A DNA stretch of 46,809 nucleotides from an uncultured Candidatus Saccharibacteria bacterium (GTDB lineage: Bacteria; Patescibacteriota; Minisyncoccia; UBA6257; GWB1-50-10): NCBI GenBank assembly GCA_964366055.1, contig CAYISE010000003.1, positions 1-46,809 on the forward strand. Reading direction: 5' to 3'. Positions 1 through 40,404 of this stretch are shown piece by piece (position 1 is the stretch's first letter; each line of letters starts with the position of its first letter). A model generated the notes under the pieces. It was not told where the DNA came from. It saw only the letters and a list, made by a program, of their open reading frames with translations, and made no database searches. Made by a program: the position numbers and the translations under genes.

Positions 1-171
1 TTTACCTCTGAAAAGGGTTTTTGGCTTGGTCCGCCGCTTGAGCGGCGGCAAAAACTCTTTTCAGCAGCGAGCTCTGCCACTGGAAGCAGAGCGAAGCGGG
101 GTTAAAATTTTCTGTTTCGCAATTCAAAGTCAGAAAAACATAAAAAACCCGGAAAACTCGGAAAAGCTGAT

Positions 172-212
172 AAACCCGATAAACCTGAAAATGTTGAAAA
201 ACCCGATAAACC
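172..212. repeat. Two direct copies of AAACCCGATAAACC (172-185 and 199-212), 27 bp apart, with a degenerate third copy AAAACCCGGAAAAC at 144-157
   Basis: Read directly from the sequence. Lies in an A-rich non-coding stretch at the window edge. Confidence 0.6.
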
Positions 213-309
213 CGGTAATGCGATGAATCCTACATTCCTTGACAAAAAAGTGTGAAACATGTGAAACACTATCTTTTTTAGACAACCGGGTAGTGCGATG
301 AATCCTACA
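212..309. repeat. Direct repeat pair CCGGTAATGCGATGAATCCTACA (212-234) and CCGGGTAGTGCGATGAATCCTACA (286-309), each followed by GTGAAACA-type motifs
   Basis: Read directly. There are two copies about 74 bp apart in a non-coding region upstream of yraN. Confidence 0.6.
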
Positions 310-5193: not shown

Positions 5194-5886
5194 CTAGGAG
5201 ATTGATTTTAGTTTGGAGAAATCCTTGAAGATGAAAAAAGCGATGAAGACGAGGAAGATTGACGGATAAAGCAAACTCGCGTCCCCAAATTCGTAGATGA
5301 GATAATTGAAGGCGAAATGAATTACGGAAGCGATTGCGAGACCCAGAAAAATCCGGGATTTTAATTTGTTGATTCTCCGTCCGATAGCCCAGTAATATCC
5401 CGTGAAGGCGGAGGCCAATCCGTGGAGCAGGGTGGCGCCGATGAATCGGAAACCCAGCGTGCTCACAGTCGCGAGGATATTATTCATGCTTAAAAAATCC
5501 ATTTTGTCGCCCATAATAAAAATGTTTTCAATGGTAGCGAAACCCATGGCGGCGACAATGGCGTAAATCATCGCGTCCACCGGCTCGTCAAAGGCCGGCT
5601 CTTTGTTTACGCTCCAGTAGGCCGAGAAGAATTTAAAAACCTCCTCAATGAGCGCGAGACCGAGAATCAAAAGAAGAAAAGCGTGCAGGGGCCCGGCGAC
5701 GAATTTCTGGAAAATGAGCTGGAGGGCCAGTACCGGAACGCTCGCGAGCGCCCCGGCGCAGAAGGTGTAAATAATCAATTTTTTCGGTTCGGGATGAAGG
5801 TCCTCTTTGAGAAAGAAAATAAGCCAGAGAATGGAAGGCAGAAAGGCCAGAACCAAAACTAAAAGAAAATTTAAAGCGGCTACCAT
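5194..5886 (-). CDS. PrsW-family intramembrane protease-like protein
   Basis: Polytopic membrane protein with LIEEVFKF (EExxK), GFATIEN and LLHGLASAF motifs, characteristic of PrsW-type proteases. Confidence 0.7.
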   Translation of the reverse strand: MVAALNFLLVLVLAFLPSILWLIFFLKEDLHPEPKKLIIYTFCAGALASVPVLALQLIFQKFVAGPLHAFLLLILGLALIEEVFKFFSAYWSVNKEPAFDEPVDAMIYAIVAAMGFATIENIFIMGDKMDFLSMNNILATVSTLGFRFIGATLLHGLASAFTGYYWAIGRRINKLKSRIFLGLAIASVIHFAFNYLIYEFGDASLLYPSIFLVFIAFFIFKDFSKLKSIS

Positions 5887-8036
5887 GTTTCCACGATGAG
5901 AAGTTTCTTGTCTTCAATCGGCAGATGTTCGTAAACGGCCTCGGTAATGAAGGGCATAAACGGATGAAGCATTTTGAGCGATTCCTTGAGGGTGTAAGCG
6001 AGAATTTTTTGGGTGCCGGCCGTTAGTTTGTCGTTCCGGATTTGTTTCTTTGATTCTTCAATATACCGGTCGCAGAATTCATGCCAGAAAAAATTGTAAA
6101 GGAGGCGGAGCGTCTTGCTCAACTCAAAATTCCCTATCATCTTCTCCGTCTGCTTCTTCATTTTGGCCAAAGATTTCAGAATTTTTCTGTCCGCCGCCGT
6201 TTGATATTTGATATTTGATATTTGTTTGTCATTTGGAATTTGGAATTTGGAATTTGCAGTTTGCTCAATAACAAATCGGCTCGCGTTCCAGATTTTGTTC
6301 GCGAATTTCCGGCCAGCGATGACTGCCGCCTCGTCCCACCGGATATCCTGGCCCGTGGCCTGCCAGATTATTCCGAAACGAGTGGCGTCCGCGCCGAATT
6401 GATTGATATAATTCAGGGGGTCCAGTCCCGTGCCCAAACTCTTAGACATTCTTTTTCCGTCTTTCGTGAGAATCGTGCCGTTGATGAAGACATCGGTAAA
6501 GGGAGCTTTTTTCTGAAACTCCAGGCCGGAGAAAATCATCCGGGCAACCCACAAATTCAAAATATCGCGGGCGGTTACCAGCGTGTTGCCGGGATAGTAA
6601 TTTTTCAAATCCTCTTTGGAGAGGCCGGCGAAGGGCCAGAGAGCGGAGGAGAACCAAGTGTCTAACACATCTTCCGATTGGATATATTTCGCGTCGCAGT
6701 TTTTGCATTTTGGCTCGGTAAGCGACACTGCCATCTCCTCGCATTTTTCAATTTCTTTCTCACGCCCTTTGCGGGGGGCGCATTTTGGTTCATGAAACCA
6801 AACCGGGAGTCGATGACCCCACCAAATCTGGCGGGAGATGGACCAGTCGCGGATGTTTTCCGTCCAGTCCAGATAGGTCTTTTTGAAATTTTTTGGCCGG
6901 ATTTTGACTTTTCCGAACTTCACGGCGCTTTTCGCGAGCGCGCCCAATTTATCCATCTTCAAAAACCATTGGTTTGATGGGATGGGCTCAATTGTCGCGC
7001 CGCAACGGTAGCATTTTGCGAGGCGGTTTTTATACGCTTCTTCTTTCACCAAAAACCCCGTCTCTTTCAAGTCGCTCACGATTTTTTCCCGGGCCTCGGT
7101 AACCTTGAGTCCGGCGTATTGGCCGGCCGCCGGAGTCATTCTGGCGCGTTCGTCAATCACCTGAACCGTTTCCAGTTTGTGCCGCTGGCCGATTTCAAAA
7201 TCCAGAATGTCGTGAGCCGGCGTAACCTTCACCGCGCCCGTACCGAATTTGGGGTCAATGGCCGCGTCGCTCACAATAGGGATTTCCCGATTTTGGATCG
7301 GAAGTGTTACTTTCTTTCCGATGAGGTGTTTGTATCTTTTATCGCTGGGATTTACCGCGACGGCGGTATCACCCAGCATTGTTTCGGGTCTCGTCGTTGC
7401 CACCGTAATCTCTGGGCTGTAGCGGATGTACCAGAGTTTGGTCTCGGCGTCGCTATATTCCAGTTCCAGTTCGGACAAGTTCGTGCCGCAACGCGGGCCC
7501 CAATTCACGGTGCGGAGGCCGCGGTAAAGCCAGCCCTTCTCGTAATAATGGATGAAGGTTTTTAAGACATCGCGGCTGTATTCGGGGTCCATTGTGAAGC
7601 GGTTGCGGGACCAGTCGGCCGAGGCGGCGAATTTTTTGAGCTGGTTCAAAATCGCGTCGCCGGATTTCTGTTTCCACTCCCAGACCTTTTCAATGAATTT
7701 TTCACGGCCGAGTTCAAAGCGGGAGGTATTTTGTTTGCGCAATTCTTTTTCCACGACATATTGCGTCGCGATGCCGGCGTGGTCGGTGCCGGGCAGCCAG
7801 AGCGTTTTAAAACCTTTCATCCGGTGATAGCGGATTAAAATGTCCTGGATGGTGTTATTCAGGGCGTGACCCATATGAAGCGTCCCCGTCACATTCGGCA
7901 GGGGCATATAAACGATGTAATTTTTACTGCGCTTGCCCGGGAGATTATCTGGATTGAAATAACCCGATTTGAGCCAAGTTTCATAGATTTTATCTTCAAC
8001 CAGTTTAGGATCGTATCGGGAGTTGAGCATCTCCAT
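5880..8036 (-). CDS. valS: Valine--tRNA ligase (short form, 718 aa)
   Basis: Class I HIGH (PNVTGTLHMGHA) and KMSKS (KRMSKSLGT) motifs, plus the CP1 editing region TTRPETMLGDTAVAV. Ends right after the anticodon-binding domain. Overlaps the PrsW-like gene by 7 nt. Confidence 0.93.
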   Translation of the reverse strand: MEMLNSRYDPKLVEDKIYETWLKSGYFNPDNLPGKRSKNYIVYMPLPNVTGTLHMGHALNNTIQDILIRYHRMKGFKTLWLPGTDHAGIATQYVVEKELRKQNTSRFELGREKFIEKVWEWKQKSGDAILNQLKKFAASADWSRNRFTMDPEYSRDVLKTFIHYYEKGWLYRGLRTVNWGPRCGTNLSELELEYSDAETKLWYIRYSPEITVATTRPETMLGDTAVAVNPSDKRYKHLIGKKVTLPIQNREIPIVSDAAIDPKFGTGAVKVTPAHDILDFEIGQRHKLETVQVIDERARMTPAAGQYAGLKVTEAREKIVSDLKETGFLVKEEAYKNRLAKCYRCGATIEPIPSNQWFLKMDKLGALAKSAVKFGKVKIRPKNFKKTYLDWTENIRDWSISRQIWWGHRLPVWFHEPKCAPRKGREKEIEKCEEMAVSLTEPKCKNCDAKYIQSEDVLDTWFSSALWPFAGLSKEDLKNYYPGNTLVTARDILNLWVARMIFSGLEFQKKAPFTDVFINGTILTKDGKRMSKSLGTGLDPLNYINQFGADATRFGIIWQATGQDIRWDEAAVIAGRKFANKIWNASRFVIEQTANSKFQIPNDKQISNIKYQTAADRKILKSLAKMKKQTEKMIGNFELSKTLRLLYNFFWHEFCDRYIEESKKQIRNDKLTAGTQKILAYTLKESLKMLHPFMPFITEAVYEHLPIEDKKLLIVETW
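6200..6266. repeat. Heptanucleotide tandem repeats inside valS: (TTTGATA)x3, TTTGTTT, GTCA, (TTTGGAA)x3, TTTGCAG, TTTGCTC
   Basis: Read directly on the + strand. In frame on the - strand, encoding ...ANSKFQIPNDKQISNIKYQ.... Confidence 0.9.
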
Positions 8037-8039
8037 TTA

Positions 8040-9086
8040 TTATAAATTCAAATTCGCCTGGGCGCGAATTGCGCGCCTTTTTCTCTTTAGATTCTGAATA
8101 TACGCCGCGGCGGCAATCATGGTGGCGTTGTCGGTATTGAAGTCCATCGGCGGGACGAGGAAGTTCCGATTTATTTTCCTCGTTTCGTTTCCGAGCGTTT
8201 CTCTCAAAAACGCGTTGGCCGCGACGCCGCCGGAGAGAATCACCGATTTTGTATCGTATTCTTTAGCCGCCCGAATGGTTTTTGCAACCAGCACATCCAC
8301 GACCGCTTTTTGAAAACTCGCCGCGATATCGGCCTTATCGGTCCTGGGATTGTCGCGGAGATAATAGAGCACCGAGGTTTTGAGTCCCGAAAAACTGAAG
8401 TCGTAATTTTTATCGTGAATCATCGGCCGCGGGAATTTAACCGCCTCGCCATCGCCTTGAGCAGCTAACTTTTGGATCTCCGGCCCACCAGGGTAGGGAA
8501 GATTGAGCATCTTCGCCACTTTATCAAAGGCCTCGCCCGCGGCATCATCCCGTGTTTCACCGATTTTTTTCCATTTGGTGAAAGACGGCACATACAAAAG
8601 AATCGTGTGTCCACCAGAAACAATGAGCGCAATAGCGGGGAAGGTATTTTTAATTTGTAGTTTGTAGCGAGTAGTAAGTAGAAAGCTATATAAATGTCCC
8701 TCCAGATGATTTACCCCGATTAAAGGAATTTTCGGAAAGATTTTTTTCTTGAGTTCTTTCGCGAAATTCACGCCAGTCCAAAGAGCCGGTTCCAGCCCCG
8801 GCCCGACTGTGACCGCGATTAAATCAATTTTAGGGAAGTTCAACTTCCCTAGGGAAGTTGAACTTCCTGATATTTTTTTAAAAATTATCGGTAAATTTTT
8901 CAGGTGTTCCCGTTTCGCGATGCTCGGCACCACGCCGCCGAAGGGCCGATGAACGGCAATTTGGGAGGAGACCAGATTTTTCAGAACCTTGAACATCGGC
9001 TGGCGGAGCCCGCCCCCCGCCTCCACGAGAGCGAGGGCAGTTTCATCGCAGGAGGTCTCAATGGCGAGAATCTTCATAAATGGCAT
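8040..9086 (-). CDS. tsaD: tRNA N6-adenosine threonylcarbamoyltransferase TsaD (Kae1/Gcp family)
   Basis: ILAIETSCDETA N-terminus, GVNHLEGHL metal-binding motif, and C-terminal SGGVAAN. An alternative ATG lies at 9077. Confidence 0.93.
   Translation of the reverse strand: MPFMKILAIETSCDETALALVEAGGGLRQPMFKVLKNLVSSQIAVHRPFGGVVPSIAKREHLKNLPIIFKKISGSSTSLGKLNFPKIDLIAVTVGPGLEPALWTGVNFAKELKKKIFPKIPLIGVNHLEGHLYSFLLTTRYKLQIKNTFPAIALIVSGGHTILLYVPSFTKWKKIGETRDDAAGEAFDKVAKMLNLPYPGGPEIQKLAAQGDGEAVKFPRPMIHDKNYDFSFSGLKTSVLYYLRDNPRTDKADIAASFQKAVVDVLVAKTIRAAKEYDTKSVILSGGVAANAFLRETLGNETRKINRNFLVPPMDFNTDNATMIAAAAYIQNLKRKRRAIRAQANLNL
8654..8681. repeat. Heptanucleotide repeats inside tsaD: TTTGTAG TTTGTAG CGAGTAG TAAGTAG
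   Basis: Read directly. In frame on the - strand, encoding ...LLTTRYKLQIKN.... Confidence 0.85.
8831..8868. repeat. Nested/tandem palindromic element inside tsaD: TAGGGAAGTTCAACTTCCC + TAGGGAAGTTGAACTTCCT
   Basis: Each 19-nt half is a near-perfect palindrome, and the whole 38 nt is symmetric about CTAG. Translated in frame as ...SGSSTSLGKLNFP.... Confidence 0.9.
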
Positions 9087-15613: not shown

Positions 15614-15861
15614 CGCGATGACAAAAAGGAGCGACCAGAAACTGGTCGTCTGAAATGCCCTCTTAAAAAGGGGCTTTATTTGGACTAGAATCGTACTGAT
15701 GGATTCATTATACCAAAAATCCGACGCATTTCAATATCTTGTGCCAACGAAGTATGCCAGCAATATACCATGCGCTAGAACAGCGTCTCTGATTTCGCCC
15801 GAAAACACTTCCTCTTTTTGAGGGATGAGAGGGCGGAGCAAGGGGGGTGCAAATAAAAAAG

Positions 15862-16674
15862 ATGACTACCAGAAAAAGTTTAGGTCAGAATTTTTTGACC
15901 AATAAAAATAAAATAAGGGAGATTGTGGCGGCGCTCGGACTTGAGGGGAACGAGACGGTGATAGAAATTGGGCCGGGACACGGGGAACTGACGAGAGAGC
16001 TAATTAAGACGCCTCTTGCGCGATTCATAGCAATAGAGAAAGATCCCGCGTTGGCGGTCTCACTCAAGAGAAATTTCCAATTATCAATTTCCAATTTCCA
16101 AACTCCAAAAATTGAAATAATGGAGGGTGATGCTTTAAAAATACTTCCCTCGTTGATTGAAAATTGTAAATTGAAAATTGAAAATTACAAGGTAGTTGGC
16201 AATATCCCTTTCTATATCACGGGATTTCTCTTAAGAGTATTGAGCGAGCTAGAACCAAAACCTGAGAGAATCGTTTTAACGGTCCAAAAGGAGGTGGCGG
16301 CGAGAATCGCCGCCCGGCCGCCCAAGATGAACCTGCTCGCCGCGAGCGTTCAGTTCTGGGCCGAACCGGAGATAACGGGAATTATTCCCAAAAGCGATTT
16401 TTCGCCCCAACCTAAGGTGGATTCGGCGATTTTAAAAATCACCCCGAAGAAAACGGGCGCGAAACCGGAAAATTATTATCCCCTCATTAAAACGCTTTTC
16501 AAACAGCCGCGCAAAACGATTCTCAATAATCTTCTCGCGGGATACGCCATACCAAAGGAAAAATTGATAAAAATCCTTGAATTAGCGAATATCAACCCAA
16601 ACGACAGACCTCAAAATCTTGGCTTAAATAACTTTTTTAATTTTCTCCATCGCCTAGAAACCGGTTCCGACTAA
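15862..16674 (+). CDS. rsmA: 16S rRNA (adenine1518/1519-N6) dimethyltransferase RsmA/KsgA
   Basis: LGQNFL motif, SAM-binding VIEIGPGHGELT, and GNIPFYIT. The ATG at 15862 is preferred over GTG at 15847. Confidence 0.9.
   Translation: MTTRKSLGQNFLTNKNKIREIVAALGLEGNETVIEIGPGHGELTRELIKTPLARFIAIEKDPALAVSLKRNFQLSISNFQTPKIEIMEGDALKILPSLIENCKLKIENYKVVGNIPFYITGFLLRVLSELEPKPERIVLTVQKEVAARIAARPPKMNLLAASVQFWAEPEITGIIPKSDFSPQPKVDSAILKITPKKTGAKPENYYPLIKTLFKQPRKTILNNLLAGYAIPKEKLIKILELANINPNDRPQNLGLNNFFNFLHRLETGSD
16072..16106. repeat. Heptanucleotide repeats inside rsmA: AATTTCC AATTATC AATTTCC AATTTCC AAACTCC
   Basis: Read directly. In frame, encoding ...NFQLSISNFQTPK.... Confidence 0.85.
16156..16190. 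repeat. Heptanucleotide repeats inside rsmA: ATTGAAA ATTGTAA ATTGAAA ATTGAAA ATTACAA
   Basis: Read directly. In frame, encoding ...LIENCKLKIENYK.... Confidence 0.85.
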
Positions 16675-23273: not shown

Positions 23274-25031
23274 ATGGATATCAAAATTCCCAAAGCGTAC
23301 AAGCCCGGTGCGGAAGATGTTCCGAACATCATCGCGCCCGCCGGATTGGATATCAACAGCAATTATCTAAAAATCGGGGATTATTACACGAAAACCTTCT
23401 TCGTTTTCACCTACCCTCGCTATCTCTCCTCCAGCTGGTTTTCTTCCGTCATCAATCTACCGGAGATGATGGATATTTCCATTTTTATTCATCCGATGGA
23501 CACCGCGCTCGCGCTCCGAAATCTCCGCAAAAAAGTGGCCCAGATAGAGGCGGAGGTCAGCGAAAAAGAGGAGAAGGGAATCGTCCGGGACCCGGTGCTG
23601 GAAACCGCCTATCAGGATGTGGAGTCATTGAGAGACGCGCTTCAGCAGGCGAGGGAAAAACTTTTTGAGGTCGGTATTTATTACACCCTCTACAGCCAAA
23701 CCCAGGAAGAACTAGCGAGAATGGAAGACCGGGTGACCAACCTTTTGGAAAGCCGGCTGGTTTATGTGAAACCCGCCCTCTTCAAACAAAAGGAGGGGCT
23801 GACCTCGGTTTTCCCTCTGGGGAAAGACGAATTGGAAATTAAAACCCCCCTGAACACCGGTCCGGCCTCCTCCATCTTCCCCTTCGTCTCGCCGGACCTT
23901 TCCTCGGAAAACGGAATAATGTTCGGCATCAACATGCACAACAACGGTCTGATAATCTTTGACCGATTTTCGCTGGAAAACGCCAATATGGTTGTCTTCG
24001 CCAAGGCCGGCGCCGGCAAATCCTACGCCATCAAACTCCAAATTTTAAGGTCTCTGATGACGGGAACCAACATAATTGTGATTGACCCGGAAAACGAGTA
24101 TCAAAATCTCGCCAATGCCATCGGTGGCAGTTATTTCAAAATCTCGCTCACCTCCCAAAGCCACGTCAATCCCTTTGACATCCCGATTATGCCGGAGGGG
24201 GAGGAGCCGGCCGACGTTTTTAAGTCCCACATTTTGAATCTCACCGGTCTCGTGAAACTGATGCTCGGGGAAATCAAACCCGAAGAAGAGGCGCTCCTGG
24301 ACCGGGCCATTACCGAGACCTACGCCTCGCGCGACATCACCGCCGAGAACTTCGGTTCCATTAAAGAATTGAATCCGCCGCGATTGGAGGACCTGCAGGT
24401 GATTTTAGAAAACACGGAGGGGGGACGAACGCTCGCCCAGCGGCTGGATAAGTTCACCCACGGCTCCTACGCGGGCTTCACCAACGCGCCCACGAACGTG
24501 GATATCAAGAACCGCCTGATTGTTTTCTCCATCCGCGACCTGGAGGAAGAACTCCGTCCCATCGCGATGTACATCGTCCTGAACTTCGTTTGGAGCATGG
24601 TCCGTTCCGAATTAAAGCGGCGCCTGCTGGTGATAGACGAGGCGTGGTGGATGATGAAATACAAGGACTCCGCCTCTTTCCTTTTCGGTTTGGTCAAAAG
24701 GTGCCGCAAATATTATCTGGGGGTTACCACCATCACCCAGGACGTGGACGATTTCATAAAATCCGAGTACGGCCGGCCAATTATCACCAACTCCTCCATG
24801 CAGATACTTATGAAGCAGTCCCCATCAAGTATAGAAACCGTTTCCAAGGCCTTTGACCTGACCGACGGAGAAAAGACCTTTCTATTGGAGGCCGGCGTGG
24901 GCGAGGGACTTTTCTTCGCGGGCCTGAAGCATGTCGCCGTCAAAGTGATTGCCTCCTACACCGAGGACCAGATTATCACCACCAACCCCGAACAGATGTT
25001 GGAGATAAAAGGATTAAAAGAGGGAAAATGA
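23274..25031 (+). CDS. virB4: VirB4-like ATPase, C-terminal NTPase part
   Basis: Walker A VVFAKAGAGKSY, Walker B RRLLVIDEAWWMM, and ITQDVDDF. The two ORFs total 796 aa, which is the length of a full VirB4. Confidence 0.8.
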   Translation: MDIKIPKAYKPGAEDVPNIIAPAGLDINSNYLKIGDYYTKTFFVFTYPRYLSSSWFSSVINLPEMMDISIFIHPMDTALALRNLRKKVAQIEAEVSEKEEKGIVRDPVLETAYQDVESLRDALQQAREKLFEVGIYYTLYSQTQEELARMEDRVTNLLESRLVYVKPALFKQKEGLTSVFPLGKDELEIKTPLNTGPASSIFPFVSPDLSSENGIMFGINMHNNGLIIFDRFSLENANMVVFAKAGAGKSYAIKLQILRSLMTGTNIIVIDPENEYQNLANAIGGSYFKISLTSQSHVNPFDIPIMPEGEEPADVFKSHILNLTGLVKLMLGEIKPEEEALLDRAITETYASRDITAENFGSIKELNPPRLEDLQVILENTEGGRTLAQRLDKFTHGSYAGFTNAPTNVDIKNRLIVFSIRDLEEELRPIAMYIVLNFVWSMVRSELKRRLLVIDEAWWMMKYKDSASFLFGLVKRCRKYYLGVTTITQDVDDFIKSEYGRPIITNSSMQILMKQSPSSIETVSKAFDLTDGEKTFLLEAGVGEGLFFAGLKHVAVKVIASYTEDQIITTNPEQMLEIKGLKEGK

Positions 25032-25369
25032 ACAAATATAAAAAAATAGGCGAGGCGGAAATGATTATCGGGATAGGTTTATCCTTTCTGGTTTATTTTT
25101 TCTGTTTTCTTTTAGATTTTACAGGAATCGGGGCGGTGATCACGCCATTTATAGAAAGCTTTTTCACCTTCGGGACATGGCTGTTTTTCAAAAACAAGGG
25201 CGACCCCTTCGCCAACAGGGTTGGCGCGAATATCGCCCAATATGCCGCGAATTTGATTCCCTTCATACCGTCAATCGTGATTGCTTTTATAACCAAGGTT
25301 TATATCCATAATCATCCCAAAACCCTCGCCGCGGCGGGAAAGGTCGCGGGCGCGGCGACAAAAATATAA
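25028..25369 (+). CDS. Hypothetical small polytopic membrane protein (113 aa)
   Basis: Three hydrophobic segments. ATGA overlap with virB4. Confidence 0.5.
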   Translation: MNKYKKIGEAEMIIGIGLSFLVYFFCFLLDFTGIGAVITPFIESFFTFGTWLFFKNKGDPFANRVGANIAQYAANLIPFIPSIVIAFITKVYIHNHPKTLAAAGKVAGAATKI

Positions 25370-37571: not shown

Positions 37572-39958
37572 GAATATTTTTGGAGCGACCCCCAGCGCTT
37601 GCCGGTCTTGACCTCCGCTGTAAGCGGCACGGCCAGGGGATAGATTTCTTCCATTAATTTCTTTATGAGGGGTACGGTTTCCATAAGAATATCATCTTGA
37701 ATTTCGAAGAGCAATTCATCGTGAATGGTGAGAATCAATCTGGCTTGGCTGTTGAACCAGCCGCGCTCCTTGAGTTTCTCAAGGGAGTTTATCATCGCCA
37801 TTTTGATGATATCCGCGCCCAAACTCTGAAGAGGCATATTGATGGCCGCTCGCTCTATTTCGCCAATCATTTTTGGGTGCTGGACGCCGGTCCAAAACCA
37901 GCGCCGGCGCCCGTTTAAATTCTCCACATAGCCGCGGGATACCGCTTCCGCTTTAATTTTATCCTGCCATTTTTTTATCTTCGGGAATTCAAGGTAGTAC
38001 TCGTCAATGAATTTTTTTGCCTCCCCCAGATTTACGCCAGCCGATTGGCTGAAAGCGCGCGGCCCCATGCCGTAGACGACGCCGAAGTTCAGAGTTTTTC
38101 CGAGACGCCTTTCCGGAAGAGCAACCCCATTGAGAGGGATTTTCAGAACGCGGGAGGCGGTGAGCGCGTGAATGTCCTGATTTTCTTCAAATGCCCTAAG
38201 AAGTTTTTCTTCCAGCGTCAGATGAGCGAGAAGCCGCAATTCCAGCTGGGCGTAGTCAAAAGAGGCGAAGGAAAAACCGGGAGCGGCGACGAAAGTGTCG
38301 CGCAAATCCTTCGCCCACTCGGATTCCTGGGGGATGTTCTGAAGATTGGGTTTTTCGGAGGCCAGACGTCCCGTGGCGGTGCCGGTCTGGATGAAATTTG
38401 TCCTGATTCTTTTATCGGCGTCCCGGAACTGAAGCAGCGGCTCCGCGTAGGTGGATTTTATTTTGAATGTTTCCCGGTAAGAAAGAATTGCCGGGATAAT
38501 CGGATGAGCGTCTTTCAGGGAGAGAAGCACCTCCTCGGCGGTGGAGCGCCGGCCGGCGCTCGTTCTTTTATTTTTCACCGGTCTTATTTTCATTCTTTCA
38601 AAAATCACCTCGGCTACCTGCCGGGGCGAGTTGATATTGAAGGGGCCGCCCGCCATTGAATAAATCTTTTTAGTGAGTTCGGAAATTTTTTCGCTCATCC
38701 GGGCGCCGAGTTTTTCCAGCATTTCTCCGTCCGATTGGATGCCCCAGATTTCCAGCCAGGCGAGCGCCGGGATAAGCGGCATCTCTATTTTATAAAAAAC
38801 GTTTTCCAGCCCATCTCTTTTAATTCGGTGCTCCAACTCGTAGAAAAGGCGTTTCATCGTCTCCTGGCTTGTTTCCTCGGCGCCGCTCTTTAAAAACTTC
38901 TGAATTAAAATCTCCGGCGCGAAATCGGTTTCCTCGGAATTTAAAAGCCAGCCCGCCACCCCCAGGTCAAATAAATTGGAGGGAATTTCCTTTTTGTTTT
39001 TTATCATTCTCTTGATAATCGGTTTCCAGTCCCAAGCTACCCCAATTTCCCGTTCAAAGGTGAACGATTCTTGATTTAGGGTTCCCCCTTTTATTTCCCC
39101 GCCGTTCATCCGGCGAATGATGCTTTCAAAACCGAGTTTTTCAAGATAAGGAATAAGCGTTTCCCGTTTGAATCCGGTATATTCTATCTCGCCCGCCCCC
39201 GCTTTTAAGGGGACGTCGCAGTTAATGGTCGCGAGTTTTTTGGAAAAAAGCGCCTCTTTTTTAAAGGGCAGGATTTTTTTGGCCGCCGGGTCTTCAGCCG
39301 GCATTTTTTTAAAAATGTCTTCCAGAGCGCCGTATTTTTTGAGAAAATTTTCCGCCGTTTTGGGACCGATGCCTCTCACGCCCGGGATGTTGTCGGAGGC
39401 GTCGCCCACCAGGCCTTTATAATCCGTCATTTGGTCGGGTCTCAATCCGTAGCGCCCCATCACGGCTTTTTCATCGTAAAGCGCGGTTTCACCGACCCCC
39501 CTTTTCGGTGTCTGGACGACTACTTTTTCGCCTTCCACCAATTGAAGAGTGTCCAGGTCGCCCGTGAGAATCACTATTTGACGCCCGGGGTCTTTTTTGA
39601 ATTTCTTTACGAAAGTGCCGATGATATCATCCGCCTCAAAACCCGGTTTTTCAAAATAATTGATGTGAAATTTATTGAAGAGATTATGCGCCTCAATGAT
39701 TTGGCTGATAAGTTCATCCGGCGCCTTGGGCCGGTGGGCCTTGTAGCCCTCAAACATTTCTTTGCGGAAGGTCGGCTCGGGCCGGTCAAAGGCCGCCGCG
39801 ACATAGTCGGGTTTTTGTTCCTTGAGAACCTTTAAAAGGGCGCCGGCTAAACCGTAAAGGGCGCCCGTCGGCTGACCGTTTTTCGCGGTGAGGGGCGGCA
39901 GGGCGTGAAACGCCCGATGAATCAGAGAATTGGCGTCTATGAGTAAAAGTTTTTTCAT
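37562..39958 (-). CDS. polA: DNA polymerase I
   Basis: 5'-nuclease domain (LLLIDANSLIHRAFHA) and polymerase motifs (DYAQLELRLLAH, RRLGKTLNFGVVYG, IHDELLFE). The ATG at 39958 overlaps the tsaE stop (ATGA). The longer track ORF to 40057 would overlap tsaE. Confidence 0.93.
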   Translation of the reverse strand: MKKLLLIDANSLIHRAFHALPPLTAKNGQPTGALYGLAGALLKVLKEQKPDYVAAAFDRPEPTFRKEMFEGYKAHRPKAPDELISQIIEAHNLFNKFHINYFEKPGFEADDIIGTFVKKFKKDPGRQIVILTGDLDTLQLVEGEKVVVQTPKRGVGETALYDEKAVMGRYGLRPDQMTDYKGLVGDASDNIPGVRGIGPKTAENFLKKYGALEDIFKKMPAEDPAAKKILPFKKEALFSKKLATINCDVPLKAGAGEIEYTGFKRETLIPYLEKLGFESIIRRMNGGEIKGGTLNQESFTFEREIGVAWDWKPIIKRMIKNKKEIPSNLFDLGVAGWLLNSEETDFAPEILIQKFLKSGAEETSQETMKRLFYELEHRIKRDGLENVFYKIEMPLIPALAWLEIWGIQSDGEMLEKLGARMSEKISELTKKIYSMAGGPFNINSPRQVAEVIFERMKIRPVKNKRTSAGRRSTAEEVLLSLKDAHPIIPAILSYRETFKIKSTYAEPLLQFRDADKRIRTNFIQTGTATGRLASEKPNLQNIPQESEWAKDLRDTFVAAPGFSFASFDYAQLELRLLAHLTLEEKLLRAFEENQDIHALTASRVLKIPLNGVALPERRLGKTLNFGVVYGMGPRAFSQSAGVNLGEAKKFIDEYYLEFPKIKKWQDKIKAEAVSRGYVENLNGRRRWFWTGVQHPKMIGEIERAAINMPLQSLGADIIKMAMINSLEKLKERGWFNSQARLILTIHDELLFEIQDDILMETVPLIKKLMEEIYPLAVPLTAEVKTGKRWGSLQKYSSR

Positions 39959-40404
39959 ATTTTGAATTTTATCACCCGTTCGTTTTCTTTTCGGCCGTGC
40001 CGGAATTCCAGCCACCGCGTTTTCTTCGGTAGCGCCTTTTTTATTCTCTCCCCCCACTCTATCAGAACGATGCTTCGGGGCAGGGAAAGGATTTTTTTGA
40101 ATCCAAGCGGCTCAAGTTCGCTCAGTTTTTTTATCCGATAGGCGTCCATATGAAAGAAATGTTTGTAGCGAATAGTTTGTAGTTTGTAGTGCCGGAAAAT
40201 CAGAAACGTCGGGCTGGTGATTTTGTTTTTTAATTTTAATCCCTCGGCAAAGCCCTGAATGAAGGTGGTTTTGCCGCCGCCCAGGTTTCCTTCAAGAGCG
40301 ACTACAACAGCATTCCCGTTTTTGGTCTTCAGAACTTCTTTCGCTAGAAGTTCGCCCAGTTTTTTCGTCTCAAGCGGGGAGTAAGTGATAACTTTCATCC
40401 CCAA
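39955..40404 (-). CDS. tsaE: tRNA threonylcarbamoyladenosine biosynthesis ATPase TsaE
   Basis: P-loop GNLGGGKTTF, SPTF and HMDAYR motifs. Confidence 0.88.
   Translation of the reverse strand: MGMKVITYSPLETKKLGELLAKEVLKTKNGNAVVVALEGNLGGGKTTFIQGFAEGLKLKNKITSPTFLIFRHYKLQTIRYKHFFHMDAYRIKKLSELEPLGFKKILSLPRSIVLIEWGERIKKALPKKTRWLEFRHGRKENERVIKFKI
40162..40189. repeat. Heptanucleotide repeats inside tsaE: TTTGTAG CGAATAG TTTGTAG TTTGTAG
   Basis: Read directly. In frame on the - strand, encoding ...RHYKLQTIRYKH.... Same unit as in tsaD. Confidence 0.85.

What the first reader, a model, noticed from the sequence alone, without database searches (positions are those of the whole stretch)
6200..6266. 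AT-rich heptanucleotide tandem repeats embedded in frame in valS (first of six tracts in four essential genes)
Seen: the + strand reads (TTTGATA)x3 TTTGTTT GTCA (TTTGGAA)x3 TTTGCAG TTTGCTC. On the coding (-) strand it is translated without interruption as ...EQTANSKFQIPNDKQISNIKYQTAAD.... This lies in a variable loop after the conserved ANKIWNASRFV segment. Related 7-nt-periodic tracts sit in frame in tsaD (8654-8681), rsmA (16072-16106, 16156-16190) and tsaE (40162-40189). In each case they occupy positions that correspond to variable loops of the protein family. The sense strand always carries A-rich units (AAATTCC, AATATCA, CTACAAA, ATTGAAA). A 7-nt unit is not a multiple of 3. Gain or loss of one unit by slippage would therefore frameshift an essential gene, while three units (21 nt) restore the frame. 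Inference: this is not ordinary coding sequence. Possible explanations are in-frame insertion of a short repeat element, a DNA-level signal (uptake, recombination or nucleoid site) tolerated in loops, or slippage-prone contingency tracts.
Basis: partly seen in the sequence, partly recalled or inferred. Interest (0 to 1): 0.65.

Follow-up and report, generated by a model that had tools for sequence, protein, structure and literature searches.

The report
In-frame 7-base repeats in Patescibacteria genes
Short tandem repeats with a 7-base unit sit in frame inside surface loops of valS, tsaD, rsmA and tsaE in an uncultivated groundwater bacterium; they belong to a clade-wide set of old, nucleotide-level repeats, a coding-region form of the unexplained heptanucleotide repeats already known from other bacteria.

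Summary
All six tracts are at the stated coordinates. Period-7 tracts number 5 against 0.10 expected from codon-block shuffles, and no other period from 8 to 12 occurs.

The window comes from a Hainich groundwater Patescibacteria genome (Jorgensenbacteria-like). In 785 kb from relatives, lag 7, 14 and 21 repeats dominate (74, 63 and 48 hits, against 9–31 for neighbouring lags). An outgroup has only 7 lag-7 hits in 525 kb.

Most arrays lie inside genes, with the A-rich, G-poor strand as sense strand (46:8), and in length-variable loops.

The arrays are not private to this genome. Homologous arrays of the same length occur in relatives:
- valS: CAAA cores 35/36 identical, against 43% identity at third codon positions gene-wide
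- rsmA: 34/36 nt identical at 56% protein identity
- tsaE

Synonymous codons keep the 7-nt phase (P from <5e-5 to 0.017).

The unit heptamers are not over-represented as single copies, the units differ between genes, and no element boundaries exist. This argues against an uptake signal, an inserted mobile element or a contingency locus.

Best reading: these are heptanucleotide microsatellite arrays that arose and are homogenised by slipped-strand copying. Selection lets through only frame-preserving, stop-free, hydrophilic outcomes. This is a new variant of a known kind.

The parts
6200..6266 (-). valS composite heptanucleotide array. Sense strand = 6 units nnnCAAA + 4-nt partial (CAAA) + 3 units nnnCAAA. 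It includes perfect blocks (AAATTCC)x3 and (AATATCA)x3 and encodes EQTANSKFQIPNDKQISNIKYQT.
5880..8036 (-). valS (valine-tRNA ligase, 718 aa). The array lies between the catalytic domain and the anticodon-binding domain, at residues ~591-613.
8654..8681 (-). tsaD array. Sense strand CTACTTA CTACTCG CTACAAA CTACAAA, encoding ..LLTTRYKLQ..
8040..9086 (-). tsaD (348 aa), the host gene. The array is in a length-variable loop that carries other heptamer arrays in L046, L014, L011 and L035.
16072..16106 (+). rsmA array 1, (AATTTCC)-type, 5 units, encoding NFQLSISNFQTP. Present with the same unit in a subset of homologues (NFQFPISNFQ...).
16156..16190 (+). rsmA array 2, (ATTGAAA)-type, 5 units, encoding IENCKLKIENYK. 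Units 2 and 5, where TGA would fall in frame, are the variant units (TGT, TAC). It is inverted relative to array 1 (30 nt, 87% complementary).
15847..16674 (+). rsmA / ksgA (275 aa), host gene.
40162..40189 (-). tsaE array. Sense strand CTACAAA CTACAAA CTATTCG CTACAAA, encoding HYKLQTIRYK. Homologous 4-unit arrays are present in L208 and L209.
39955..40404 (-). tsaE (149 aa), host gene.

Best explanation
The tracts are heptanucleotide microsatellite arrays, the 7-nt class of long simple-sequence repeats. They are embedded in tolerant surface loops of housekeeping genes in a Patescibacteria (Jorgensenbacteria-like) genome.

Proposed mechanism:
1. Slipped-strand mispairing in a 7-nt register (also 14 and 21 nt) acts on short proto-repeats in loop-coding DNA. 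In valS the proto-repeat is AAA-TTC-CAA-A, the conserved K-F-Q codons.
2. This creates adjacent units and then keeps re-copying them, giving concerted evolution.
3. The host genes are needed, so only some outcomes survive: those that keep the frame (copying without length change, net multiples of 3 nt, or 21-nt steps), contain no in-frame stop, and encode benign hydrophilic peptides.
4. That filter explains the A-rich, G-poor sense strand, the loop locations and the variant units exactly where a stop would arise.
5. Every position of a 7-nt unit is read in all three codon positions along the array. A homogenised array therefore has no truly silent sites, so the arrays persist and are conserved at nucleotide level across species.

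On this reading they have no dedicated function. They are a mutational signature that shapes loop evolution and imposes a frameshift hazard.

Shown: the periodicity, clade-wide enrichment, gene and loop location, strand bias, age, and nucleotide-level conservation. Inferred: slippage or transient misalignment as the generating and homogenising process, and the absence of function.
For: (1) Period 7 is special.
- Window: 5 tracts against 0.10 expected.
- Relatives (785 kb), equal-stringency lag scan: lag 7 = 74, lag 14 = 63, lag 21 = 48, against lag 8 = 31, lag 13 = 9, lag 15 = 22, lag 20 = 13, lag 22 = 9. The outgroup (525 kb) has lag 7 = 7.
- TRF score >=40: period 7 gives 31 against 0 in the outgroup.

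(2) Location and orientation. Of 74 arrays, 56 are wholly in genes, 8 partly, and 10 intergenic, with a coding fraction of 0.91. Sense-strand A>T in 46 against 8. Array composition is A 0.48, G 0.10, against a gene background of A 0.31, G 0.22.

(3) Units are diverse, so there is no single motif, and they are not over-represented as singletons.

(4) In situ seeding. The valS array unit AAATTCC equals the K-F-Q codons. L009 has K-F-E at that position and its array is (AAATTCG)n.

(5) Coding filter. In rsmA array 2 the only variant units are those where TGA would be in frame.

(6) Age and length-preserving change. L202 (same synteny, ValRS 67% identical) has the same 6 + partial + 3 unit architecture and the same length. 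CAAA cores are 35/36 identical, variable trinucleotides 15/27, and gene-wide third positions 43%. The window has homogenised TTC x3 and TAT x3 where L202 is heterogeneous. L009 shows a concerted core change to GAAA.
- rsmA array 2 is 34/36 nt identical in L205 at 56% protein identity, with diverged flanks. L206 has a concerted G->C version.
- tsaE arrays are homologous in L208 and L209.

(7) Conservation beyond the protein. Same-codon use at identical residues is 73/94 inside arrays against 45.8 expected. The lag-7 phase of synonymous codons is significant.

(8) Concerted evolution at the 21-nt register. Two adjacent 7-aa copies in RsmA co-vary across 118 homologues: 2.23 identical against 1.37 (sd 0.07) for shuffled partners, and 0.3-0.7 at other offsets. 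TsaE homologues differ by exactly one 7-aa copy (YKIQNF against YKIQNTRYKIQNF).

(9) Literature. Heptanucleotide units are reported as the most abundant long-SSR class in many prokaryotes, with a polymerase-slippage explanation proposed (Mrazek et al. 2007, as summarised in PMC4679880 and PMC4692102).
Against: - Why 7 nt rather than 6 or 8 is not explained by anything tested here.
- In tsaE the relatives' arrays look like slow point-mutational decay rather than active homogenisation.
- A single-unit slip is a frameshift, so stepwise growth inside a required gene needs either 21-nt events, compensated indels, or copying without length change. None of these was observed directly.
- The same or similar units recur within a genome more than between genomes (10 pairs against 3.95, p = 0.007). 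Examples are CTACAAA with a shared CTAYTCG variant in both tsaD and tsaE, and CTACTCA at four sites in L046 tsaD and folD.
- Exact 31-mers of rsmA array 2 are 40-80 times deeper than their flanks in the source metagenome and occur in at least one non-rsmA context.
- These last two points fit copy-paste between loci, or a sequence-specific factor, better than purely local slippage.
- The near-perfect conservation of the CAAA cores could also reflect selection on the nucleic acid.
- The pooled codon test uses comparisons that are not independent.
Confidence: 0.58

Rival explanations
1. Copy-paste origin. Array cassettes of about 21-35 nt are spread between loci, and perhaps between co-occurring genomes, by ectopic gene conversion, templated repair or a very small mobile element. 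Local slippage then plays only a secondary role.
For: - tsaD and tsaE share CTACAAA plus the variant CTAYTCG (18/21 nt alignable).
- In L208 and L209 the third tsaE unit is CTACCCA, and the window changed three clustered bases towards the tsaD variant.
- L046 has CTACTCA arrays at four sites in tsaD and folD.
- Within-genome unit sharing is 10 pairs against 3.95, p = 0.007.
- Exact 31-mers of 16155-16186 reach k-mer depth 430-500 against 6-10 for the flanks. Contigs of depth 242 and 38 end in them, and one context is not rsmA (MDSTSTE|IENCKLK...). Array 1, with its variant unit, is found exactly in a different 4.2-kb contig.
- (AAATTCC)>=3 occurs in more than 120 metagenome contigs, in many unrelated genes.
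Against: - There are no conserved flanks, inverted ends or duplications around the arrays.
- Orthologous arrays have identical length and position in relatives, which implies vertical inheritance.
- The valS units match the local conserved codons, KFQ or KFE.
- Units that are stop-free in all frames, such as AAATTCC, are few. Recurrence can therefore be convergent, and the metagenome scan was seeded with that unit.
- Convergence on TGT at an in-frame TGA has a chance of about 1 in 8 per pair.
- The exact rsmA array is not in IMG/VR and occurs in only one of 207 loci, an rsmA orthologue.
Confidence: 0.15
2. The arrays are nucleic-acid-level functional elements kept by selection. They could be register-7 binding sites on mRNA or ssDNA for an OB-fold or cold-shock-type protein, or unstructured A-rich mRNA segments that tune translation or decay.
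For: - Nucleotide-level conservation exceeds protein constraint: CAAA cores 35/36, rsmA 34/36 nt, same-codon 73 against 45.8.
- Orientation is tied to the transcribed strand, 46:8.
- The sense strand is G-poor, and the tract RNA shows no more structure than shuffles (z -0.23 and -0.52).
- B. subtilis CspB binds heptamer repeats, one protein per heptamer (as reviewed in PMC4679880).
Against: - No common motif is shared across genes (cores are CAAA, CTAC, CAA, GAAA).
- L009 and L206 show concerted changes of the core itself.
- The closest sampled relatives lack arrays at the same loops (L002, L003, L068). L068 has none in 22 kb.
- Array 1 of rsmA is absent in L204 and L205 while array 2 is kept, and complementarity between the two is not preserved in L206.
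- There is no Rfam family in the window.
- Strand bias and conservation are both predicted by the coding filter alone.
Confidence: 0.12
3. Ordinary protein-level selection. The loops encode short structural repeats (7-aa hairpin or linker motifs rich in K, N, Q, I), and the DNA periodicity merely follows from the peptide and codon bias.
For: - The RsmA and TsaE loop peptides are conserved across the clade with fixed length ([IL]xN.KLK[IL]xNYK and YK.x...YK.F).
- The loops are modelled with pLDDT 81-85 and include a short helix.
Against: - Synonymous resampling shows the lag-7 phase is far above what the peptides and codon usage give.
- Same-codon excess persists after correcting per amino acid.
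- The ValRS loop is hypervariable in sequence and length (15-32 aa) across 60 homologues.
- Intergenic arrays of the same kind exist at about 2.6 times higher density.
Confidence: 0.07
4. Contingency (phase-variable) loci. Unit gain or loss switches the genes off and on.
For: The repeats are non-triplet and lie inside ORFs. One-unit slippage would shift the frame (direct from the sequence).
Against: - The hosts are single-copy housekeeping genes (ValRS, the t6A machinery).
- The tracts are mid-gene and only 3-5 units long.
- They are conserved between species at the same length.
- No indel variants appear in contigs of four runs. One contig from a second sample spans 6132-6337 with no difference.
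Confidence: 0.03

Closest known systems
Long simple-sequence repeats with heptanucleotide units in prokaryotic genomes (Mrazek, Guo & Shah 2007, as cited in PMC4679880 and PMC4692102)
   Same: Head-to-tail 7-nt units, typically a few copies. There are many different units per genome. Period 7 is favoured over neighbouring periods, and abundance is lineage-specific. A polymerase-slippage origin has been proposed.
   Different: That work reports non-triplet long SSRs mainly outside genes. Here about three quarters of the arrays lie inside genes, in frame, in housekeeping enzymes. They are conserved between species at nucleotide level. I found no description of this in Patescibacteria.
Cyanobacterial short tandemly repeated repetitive (STRR) heptamers (Calothrix/Nostoc/Anabaena; cited in PMC4692102)
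   Same: Tandem heptanucleotides dispersed at many loci. Function has been unknown for decades. Contigs that look cyanobacterial in my metagenome scan carry STRR-like units (TGACCAA) alongside AAATTCC arrays.
   Different: STRRs are defined by a few specific units and are reported as mostly intergenic. The units here are different, A-rich and coding.
TAACTGA repeats of Beggiatoaceae (PMC4679880) and GGGNATC G-quadruplex repeats of Xanthomonas/Nostoc (PMC4692102)
   Same: Heptamer direct repeats of 2-6 or about 4 units, spread over the genome and transcribed. Their origin is unexplained.
   Different: Each of those has one dominant unit per genome, lies next to genes (upstream of starts or after stops), and is under-represented within ORFs. 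A regulatory or G4 role has been proposed. Here there are many units, they are G-poor (so no G4), and they sit inside ORFs.
Rickettsia palindromic elements inserted in frame in genes (Ogata et al. 2000; from my own knowledge)
   Same: Repetitive DNA tolerated in frame in surface loops of essential proteins.
   Different: RPEs are 100-150-bp mobile palindromes with a conserved sequence and clear presence/absence. The arrays here have no conserved ends, are 28-67 nt of 7-nt units, and are vertically inherited.
Phase-variable contingency loci (tetra- to heptanucleotide SSRs in Haemophilus/Neisseria; e.g. PMC2651432)
   Same: Non-triplet SSRs inside ORFs, whose slippage shifts the frame.
   Different: Contingency tracts are long, hypervariable between strains, near the 5' ends of genes, and in surface or restriction genes. 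Here the tracts are short, stable, mid-gene and in core translation-related genes.

Membership tests
Heptanucleotide long SSR (microsatellite) arrays | Head-to-tail copies of a 7-nt unit, at least 3 copies, beyond chance | tested here: met
   TRF and run scans. 5 tracts against 0.10 expected in shuffles.
Heptanucleotide long SSR (microsatellite) arrays | Genome- or lineage-wide excess of period 7 over neighbouring periods, with many different units | tested here: met
   Lag 7/14/21 = 74/63/48 against 9-31 for neighbouring lags in 785 kb of relatives; outgroup lag 7 = 7. 36 different unit necklaces in 42 arrays.
Heptanucleotide long SSR (microsatellite) arrays | Copy-number change by slippage | tested here: inconclusive
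   No indel variants in Logan contigs, but contigs hide rare variants and depth is 3-10x. Between species, length is conserved while units are homogenised. 7-aa copy gain or loss occurs among TsaE homologues.
Contingency / phase-variable locus | Long hypervariable tract that switches a dispensable, usually surface-related gene | tested here: not met
   3-5 units, mid-gene, in valS/tsaD/tsaE/rsmA. Same length in other species.
DNA uptake / Chi / KOPS-type dispersed signal | One conserved oligomer, strongly over-represented as dispersed single copies | tested here: not met
   Unit heptamers occur outside arrays at Markov-2 expectation. Units differ between genes.
In-frame mobile repeat element (RPE/MITE-like) | Conserved element ends or inverted termini, target duplications, and clean filled/empty sites | tested here: not met
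   Flanks of 26 in-ORF (AAATTCC)n arrays are unrelated. Orthologous arrays have the same architecture in relatives. The sequence between the two inverted rsmA arrays is conserved KsgA core (GDALK), not an insert.
Cyanobacterial STRR | Specific units (CCCCAGT, TTGGTCA, CAACAGT) in heterocystous cyanobacteria, mostly intergenic | tested here: not met
   The host is Patescibacteria. The units are different and coding.
Known structured RNA | Match to an Rfam covariance model, or significant folding | tested here: not met
   No Rfam hit in the window. Fold z-scores are -0.23 and -0.52.

The most novel reading that the evidence does not exclude
The arrays are not passive slippage debris. They are the visible product of a dedicated, register-7 nucleic-acid process that is shared by many uncultivated bacteria. 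This could be a replication or repair enzyme property that copies in 7-nt steps without changing length, or a protein that binds mRNA or ssDNA one heptamer at a time. That process actively maintains, and perhaps spreads, identical cassettes between genes and co-occurring genomes. This would explain the near-perfect core conservation, the within-genome sharing of units, the very deep exact 31-mers in the community, and the inverted array pairs.
Probability: 0.15. Interest if true: 0.8.

Novelty: new variant of a known kind. Interest (0 to 1): 0.55.

Why it matters
Heptanucleotide tandem repeats have been noted in bacteria since 1990 (STRRs). In 2007 they were reported as the most abundant long-SSR class. 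Neither their origin nor the preference for 7 nt has been explained.

Arrays that sit inside required genes are a natural experiment. Selection forbids frame changes, so what remains shows how the arrays evolve: unit homogenisation without length change, 21-nt steps, and stop-avoiding variant units.

The arrays also show:
- that non-triplet microsatellites can persist for long evolutionary times inside aminoacyl-tRNA synthetase and t6A genes;
- that they are a source of the lineage-specific loop insertions typical of Patescibacteria proteins;
- that they cause local assembly breaks, because Logan contigs end at the tracts.

Practically, the codon-independent 7-nt phase could be used as a marker when annotating or binning these genomes.

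Tried and rejected
- Chance or composition: rejected by shuffles.
- By-product of the peptide: rejected by synonymous resampling and the per-amino-acid codon test.
- Uptake or Chi-like signal: rejected, because singleton counts are as expected.
- RNA hairpin between the two inverted rsmA arrays: the arms are 87% complementary, but the fold is no better than shuffles. Array 1 is missing in L204 and L205, and complementarity is not kept in L206.
- Structured RNA family: none found.
- Unit-number polymorphism: only Logan contigs of low depth were available. No indels were seen, and contigs break at the tracts. This is weak evidence.
- Search for close strains: the nearest ValRS is only 78% identical, so recent events could not be dated.
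- Search for the exact rsmA array in IMG/VR: no match.
- Shared imperfect 24-mers between loci as a test of copy-paste: dominated by the seeded AAATTCC set, so not informative. An apparent valS-like match in L198 proved to be an intergenic array of an unrelated genome.
It was replaced by direct DNA comparisons.
- Literature searches for heptanucleotide repeats or SSRs in Patescibacteria/CPR found nothing relevant.
Full report
**1. What is there**

The + strand at 6200-6266 reads (TTTGATA)x3, TTTG, TTTGTCA, (TTTGGAA)x3, TTTGCAG, TTTGCTC. On the coding (-) strand this is six units of the form nnnCAAA, a 4-nt partial unit, and three more units. It is translated without interruption as EQTANSKFQIPNDKQISNIKYQT inside a 718-aa ORF.

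TRF reports two perfect period-7 arrays here. It reports further period-7 arrays at 16072-16101, 16156-16186 and 40173-40190. The tract at 8654-8681 is visible directly.

Pfam confirms the hosts as ValRS, TsaD, RsmA/KsgA and TsaE. The contig comes from a 0.1-µm-filter Hainich groundwater metagenome. Its closest ValRS relatives are Patescibacteria MAGs labelled Minisyncoccia or Jorgensenbacteria, none closer than 78%.

**2. More than chance, and a DNA-level property**

- Perfect runs of at least 2.5 units: four for period 7, and none or one for every other period from 2 to 12.
- Three-copy tracts with at most 2 mismatches: five for period 7 against 0.10 in 200 local codon-block shuffles, and none for periods 8-12.
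- Holding each peptide fixed and redrawing synonymous codons from the window's own usage gives far fewer lag-7 matches than observed in all five tracts (P from <5e-5 to 0.017).

The repeat is therefore written in the DNA and is not implied by the protein.

**3. It is a clade-wide phenomenon**

In 785 kb around valS from about 50 Patescibacteria genomes, an equal-stringency scan (at least 12 of 14 matches) gives these counts:

| Lag | 7 | 14 | 21 | 8 | 13 | 15 | 20 | 22 |
|---|---|---|---|---|---|---|---|---|
| Hits | 74 | 63 | 48 | 31 | 9 | 22 | 13 | 9 |

The 525 kb of Thermotogae and Spirochaete outgroup loci have 7 hits at lag 7. TRF at score >=40 gives 31 period-7 arrays against 0 in the outgroup.

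The window's density (0.107 per kb) is typical of the clade (0.089 per kb). Density varies between genomes (chi-square p = 0.008), and the closest relative with 22 kb of sequence has none.

Using greedy ORF calls (coding fraction 0.91):
- 56 of 74 arrays are wholly inside genes, 8 overlap gene ends and 10 are intergenic. Arrays are about 2.6 times denser outside genes, but most are coding.
- The sense strand is A-rich in 46 arrays against 8.
- Array composition is A 0.48 and G 0.10, against a gene background of 0.31 and 0.22.
- Units are diverse: 36 necklaces in 42 arrays, often of the form CAAAnnn.

**4. Where in the proteins**

- ValRS: the tract is 9 residues longer than the corresponding segment of Thermus ValRS (1GAX), just after the ANKIWNA helix. 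In an AlphaFold model (mean pLDDT 89.8) it is coil plus a short helix between helices 570-593 and 614-635, with pLDDT 81-85. Among 60 homologues this loop ranges from 15 to 32 residues.
- RsmA: the two arrays flank the conserved GDALK strand. They are +1 and +4 residues relative to B. subtilis KsgA.
- TsaE: the array is in the hairpin before HxDxYR, +3 residues against B. subtilis.
- TsaD: heptamer arrays with different units occupy the same three or four length-variable loops in different lineages.

**5. The arrays are old and conserved at nucleotide level**

*valS.* L202 has the same gene order and a ValRS 67% identical. Its valS loop has identical length and architecture (6 units + 4-nt partial + 3 units). 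The CAAA cores are identical at 35 of 36 positions and the variable trinucleotides at 15 of 27. Gene-wide third codon positions are only 43% identical. The window has three identical TTC units and three identical TAT units where L202 is heterogeneous. L203 has TTCCAAA/ATCCAAA in the other block. L009 has (AAATTCG)n with GAAA cores.

*rsmA.* Array 2 is 34/36 nt identical in L205 (56% protein identity) and nearly so in L204 (same sample, 55%). The immediately adjacent codons have diverged at synonymous sites. L206 has the concerted variant (ATTCAAA)n and a perfect (AATTTCC)x4.4 in loop 1.

*tsaE.* L208 (82% identical) and L209 carry homologous four-unit arrays.

*Codon test.* At residues identical between species, the same codon is used in 73 of 94 array positions against 45.8 expected from per-amino-acid rates in the rest of the same genes. 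These comparisons are not independent.

**6. Signs of the generating and filtering processes**

- Seeding: the valS unit AAATTCC is the conserved K-F-Q codon string (AAA TTC CAA; Thermus has GFQ). L009 has K-F-E and an AAATTCG array.
- Stop avoidance: (ATTGAAA)n would put TGA in frame at every third unit. Units 2 and 5 are the only variant units (TGT and TAC).
- 21-nt register: across 118 RsmA homologues, the seven residues before GNIPYY and the seven before those co-vary within proteins. The mean is 2.23 identical, against 1.37 ± 0.07 with shuffled partners and 0.3-0.7 at offsets 5, 6, 8 and 9. Examples are PKAYGLK|PKAYKIV and TNNKKLI|TNNYKLI.
- TsaE homologues differ by exactly one 7-aa copy.

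Together these fit slipped-strand copying in 7, 14 and 21-nt registers, with selection passing only frame-preserving, stop-free, hydrophilic products. Each unit position is read in all three codon positions along an array, so a homogenised array has no silent sites. This can account for the nucleotide-level conservation without a separate function. This last step is inference.

**7. Rivals**

- *Dispersed DNA signal.* Excluded. The unit heptamers occur outside arrays at Markov-2 expectation, and there is no common motif.
- *Contingency locus.* Very unlikely, given housekeeping genes, mid-gene location, 3-5 units, interspecies conservation, and no indel variants in contigs of four runs.
- *Inserted element.* Not supported. 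There are no ends or flanks, and the DNA between the two inverted rsmA arrays is conserved KsgA core.
- *Protein-only selection.* Contradicted.

Two rivals remain open.

(a) *Copy-paste between loci.*
- tsaD and tsaE share CTACAAA plus the variant CTAYTCG.
- L046 has CTACTCA arrays at four sites in tsaD and folD.
- Similar units recur within genomes more than between them (p = 0.007).
- Exact 31-mers of rsmA array 2 have k-mer depth 430-500 against 6-10 for their flanks. They occur in another species' rsmA and in at least one other context.

(b) *Selection on the nucleic acid.* Conceivable are register-7 binding by a Csp-type protein, or an unstructured A-rich mRNA segment. The absence of arrays in the closest relatives and the concerted changes of the cores argue against it.

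**8. Wider context**

- In low- and mid-GC contigs the array lies in frame in ValRS, IleRS, AlaRS, MetRS, PGK, Mur ligases, RecJ, MnmA, a P-type ATPase, an NRPS, UbiD, MoeA and others.
- AAATTCC is the sense strand about 30 times against 6.
- These contigs carry many more heptamer arrays of other units: lag 7 = 100, 44 and 51 in the three GC classes, against at most 21 for other lags except 14.
- In high-GC soil contigs the arrays form intergenic inverted pairs.

The literature I could search reports heptanucleotide repeats as the most abundant long SSRs in many prokaryotes, mostly intergenic, with slippage proposed. It contains nothing on Patescibacteria.

**9. Verdict**

The tracts are a coding-region, conserved form of the known but unexplained heptanucleotide-repeat phenomenon, so a new variant of a known kind. 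The reason for the 7-nt register, and whether cassettes move between loci, remain open.

Noticed in passing
window 8831-8867 (- strand, inside tsaD loop 1): A 19-nt unit that is itself a palindrome (GGAAGTT-C/G-AACTTCC + CTA) is duplicated in tandem (1.9 copies, 94%). It is read in two different frames as GSSTSL|GKLNFP. This loop is about 9 residues longer than in L068 and L003. It is another non-triplet tandem duplication sitting in frame in a loop.
   Followed up: partly
window 16155-16186, runs X1-X4: Exact 31-mers of rsmA array 2 have k-mer depth 430-500 (summed table depth above 2,500) against 6-10 for the flanking rsmA sequence. Contigs of depth 242 and 38 end in it. The flanks include another species' rsmA (..VANLPYYIAS) and a different context (MDSTSTE|IENCKLKIEN). 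Array 1 (16072-16101), with its variant unit, is found exactly in a different 4.2-kb contig.
   Followed up: partly
L163, L179, L131, L182, L196, L157, L094, L174, L125 (high-GC metagenome contigs): AT-rich heptamer arrays occur as inverted pairs, (GGAATTT)n - 15-30 nt - (AAATTCC)n, often with a conserved CACGCATTCC junction, in genomes of 64-69% GC. L125 has several such pairs, each with its own unit (GATGGTT, CAACTGA, TTATGAG). These are hairpins whose stems are built of 7-nt repeats. Organism and role are unknown.
   Followed up: no
window 16072-16101 vs 16157-16186; L046 9847-9947; L003 3347-3417: Inverted pairs of heptamer arrays also occur in the Patescibacteria loci. The two rsmA arrays are 30 nt and 87% complementary, 55 nt apart, around conserved coding sequence. 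L046 and L003 have intergenic inverted array pairs next to valS/tsaD.
   Followed up: partly
P0121-P0240 (RsmA homologues), residues -14..-1 before GNIPYY: A clade-wide 7-aa tandem duplication whose two copies co-vary within each protein (for example PKAYGLK|PKAYKIV, VTNYGLR|VTNYKLI). TsaE shows the same kind of 7-aa copy (YKIQNTR|YKIQNF), which is present or absent among homologues.
   Followed up: yes
window 143-221 and 251-268: Near the window start there is an imperfect 9-nt/27-nt periodic repeat (AAAACCCGG / GATAAACCC, 2.9 copies of 27 nt). It is followed by TGTGAAACA x2, upstream of the ORF at 389-760.
   Followed up: no
L184 9880-13380 (-): An IleRS-like ORF of 1,167 aa has a complete histidine-phosphatase (His_Phos_1) domain inserted between the two halves of the catalytic domain. 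It also carries an in-frame (AAATTCC) array after the anticodon-binding domain.
   Followed up: no
L097 3198-3336; L106 7353-7538; L090 3713-3788: Much longer heptamer arrays (10-25 units, for example GTTTGGA/GTTTGGG and AAATCCC/AAATTCT with higher-order periodicity) occur in low-GC metagenome contigs. Some sit at contig ends, which suggests assembly breaks.
   Followed up: no
window 25076-25113 (+), in ORF 25028-25369: A T-rich 7/14-nt periodic tract (GGTTTATTTTTTCT-like, 73-83% matches) lies near the N-terminus of a 113-aa ORF. It is one of the few arrays whose sense strand is T-rich, possibly a membrane segment.
   Followed up: no
window 5900-6600, runs X1-X4: Logan contigs of the source genome end at the heptamer tracts (contig ends at 6227, 6236 and 6257). 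Many unrelated contigs match 6213-6255 at 90% or more (summed depth above 100 against 3-7). TTTGGAA-type arrays are therefore common in the community and fragment assemblies.
   Followed up: partly
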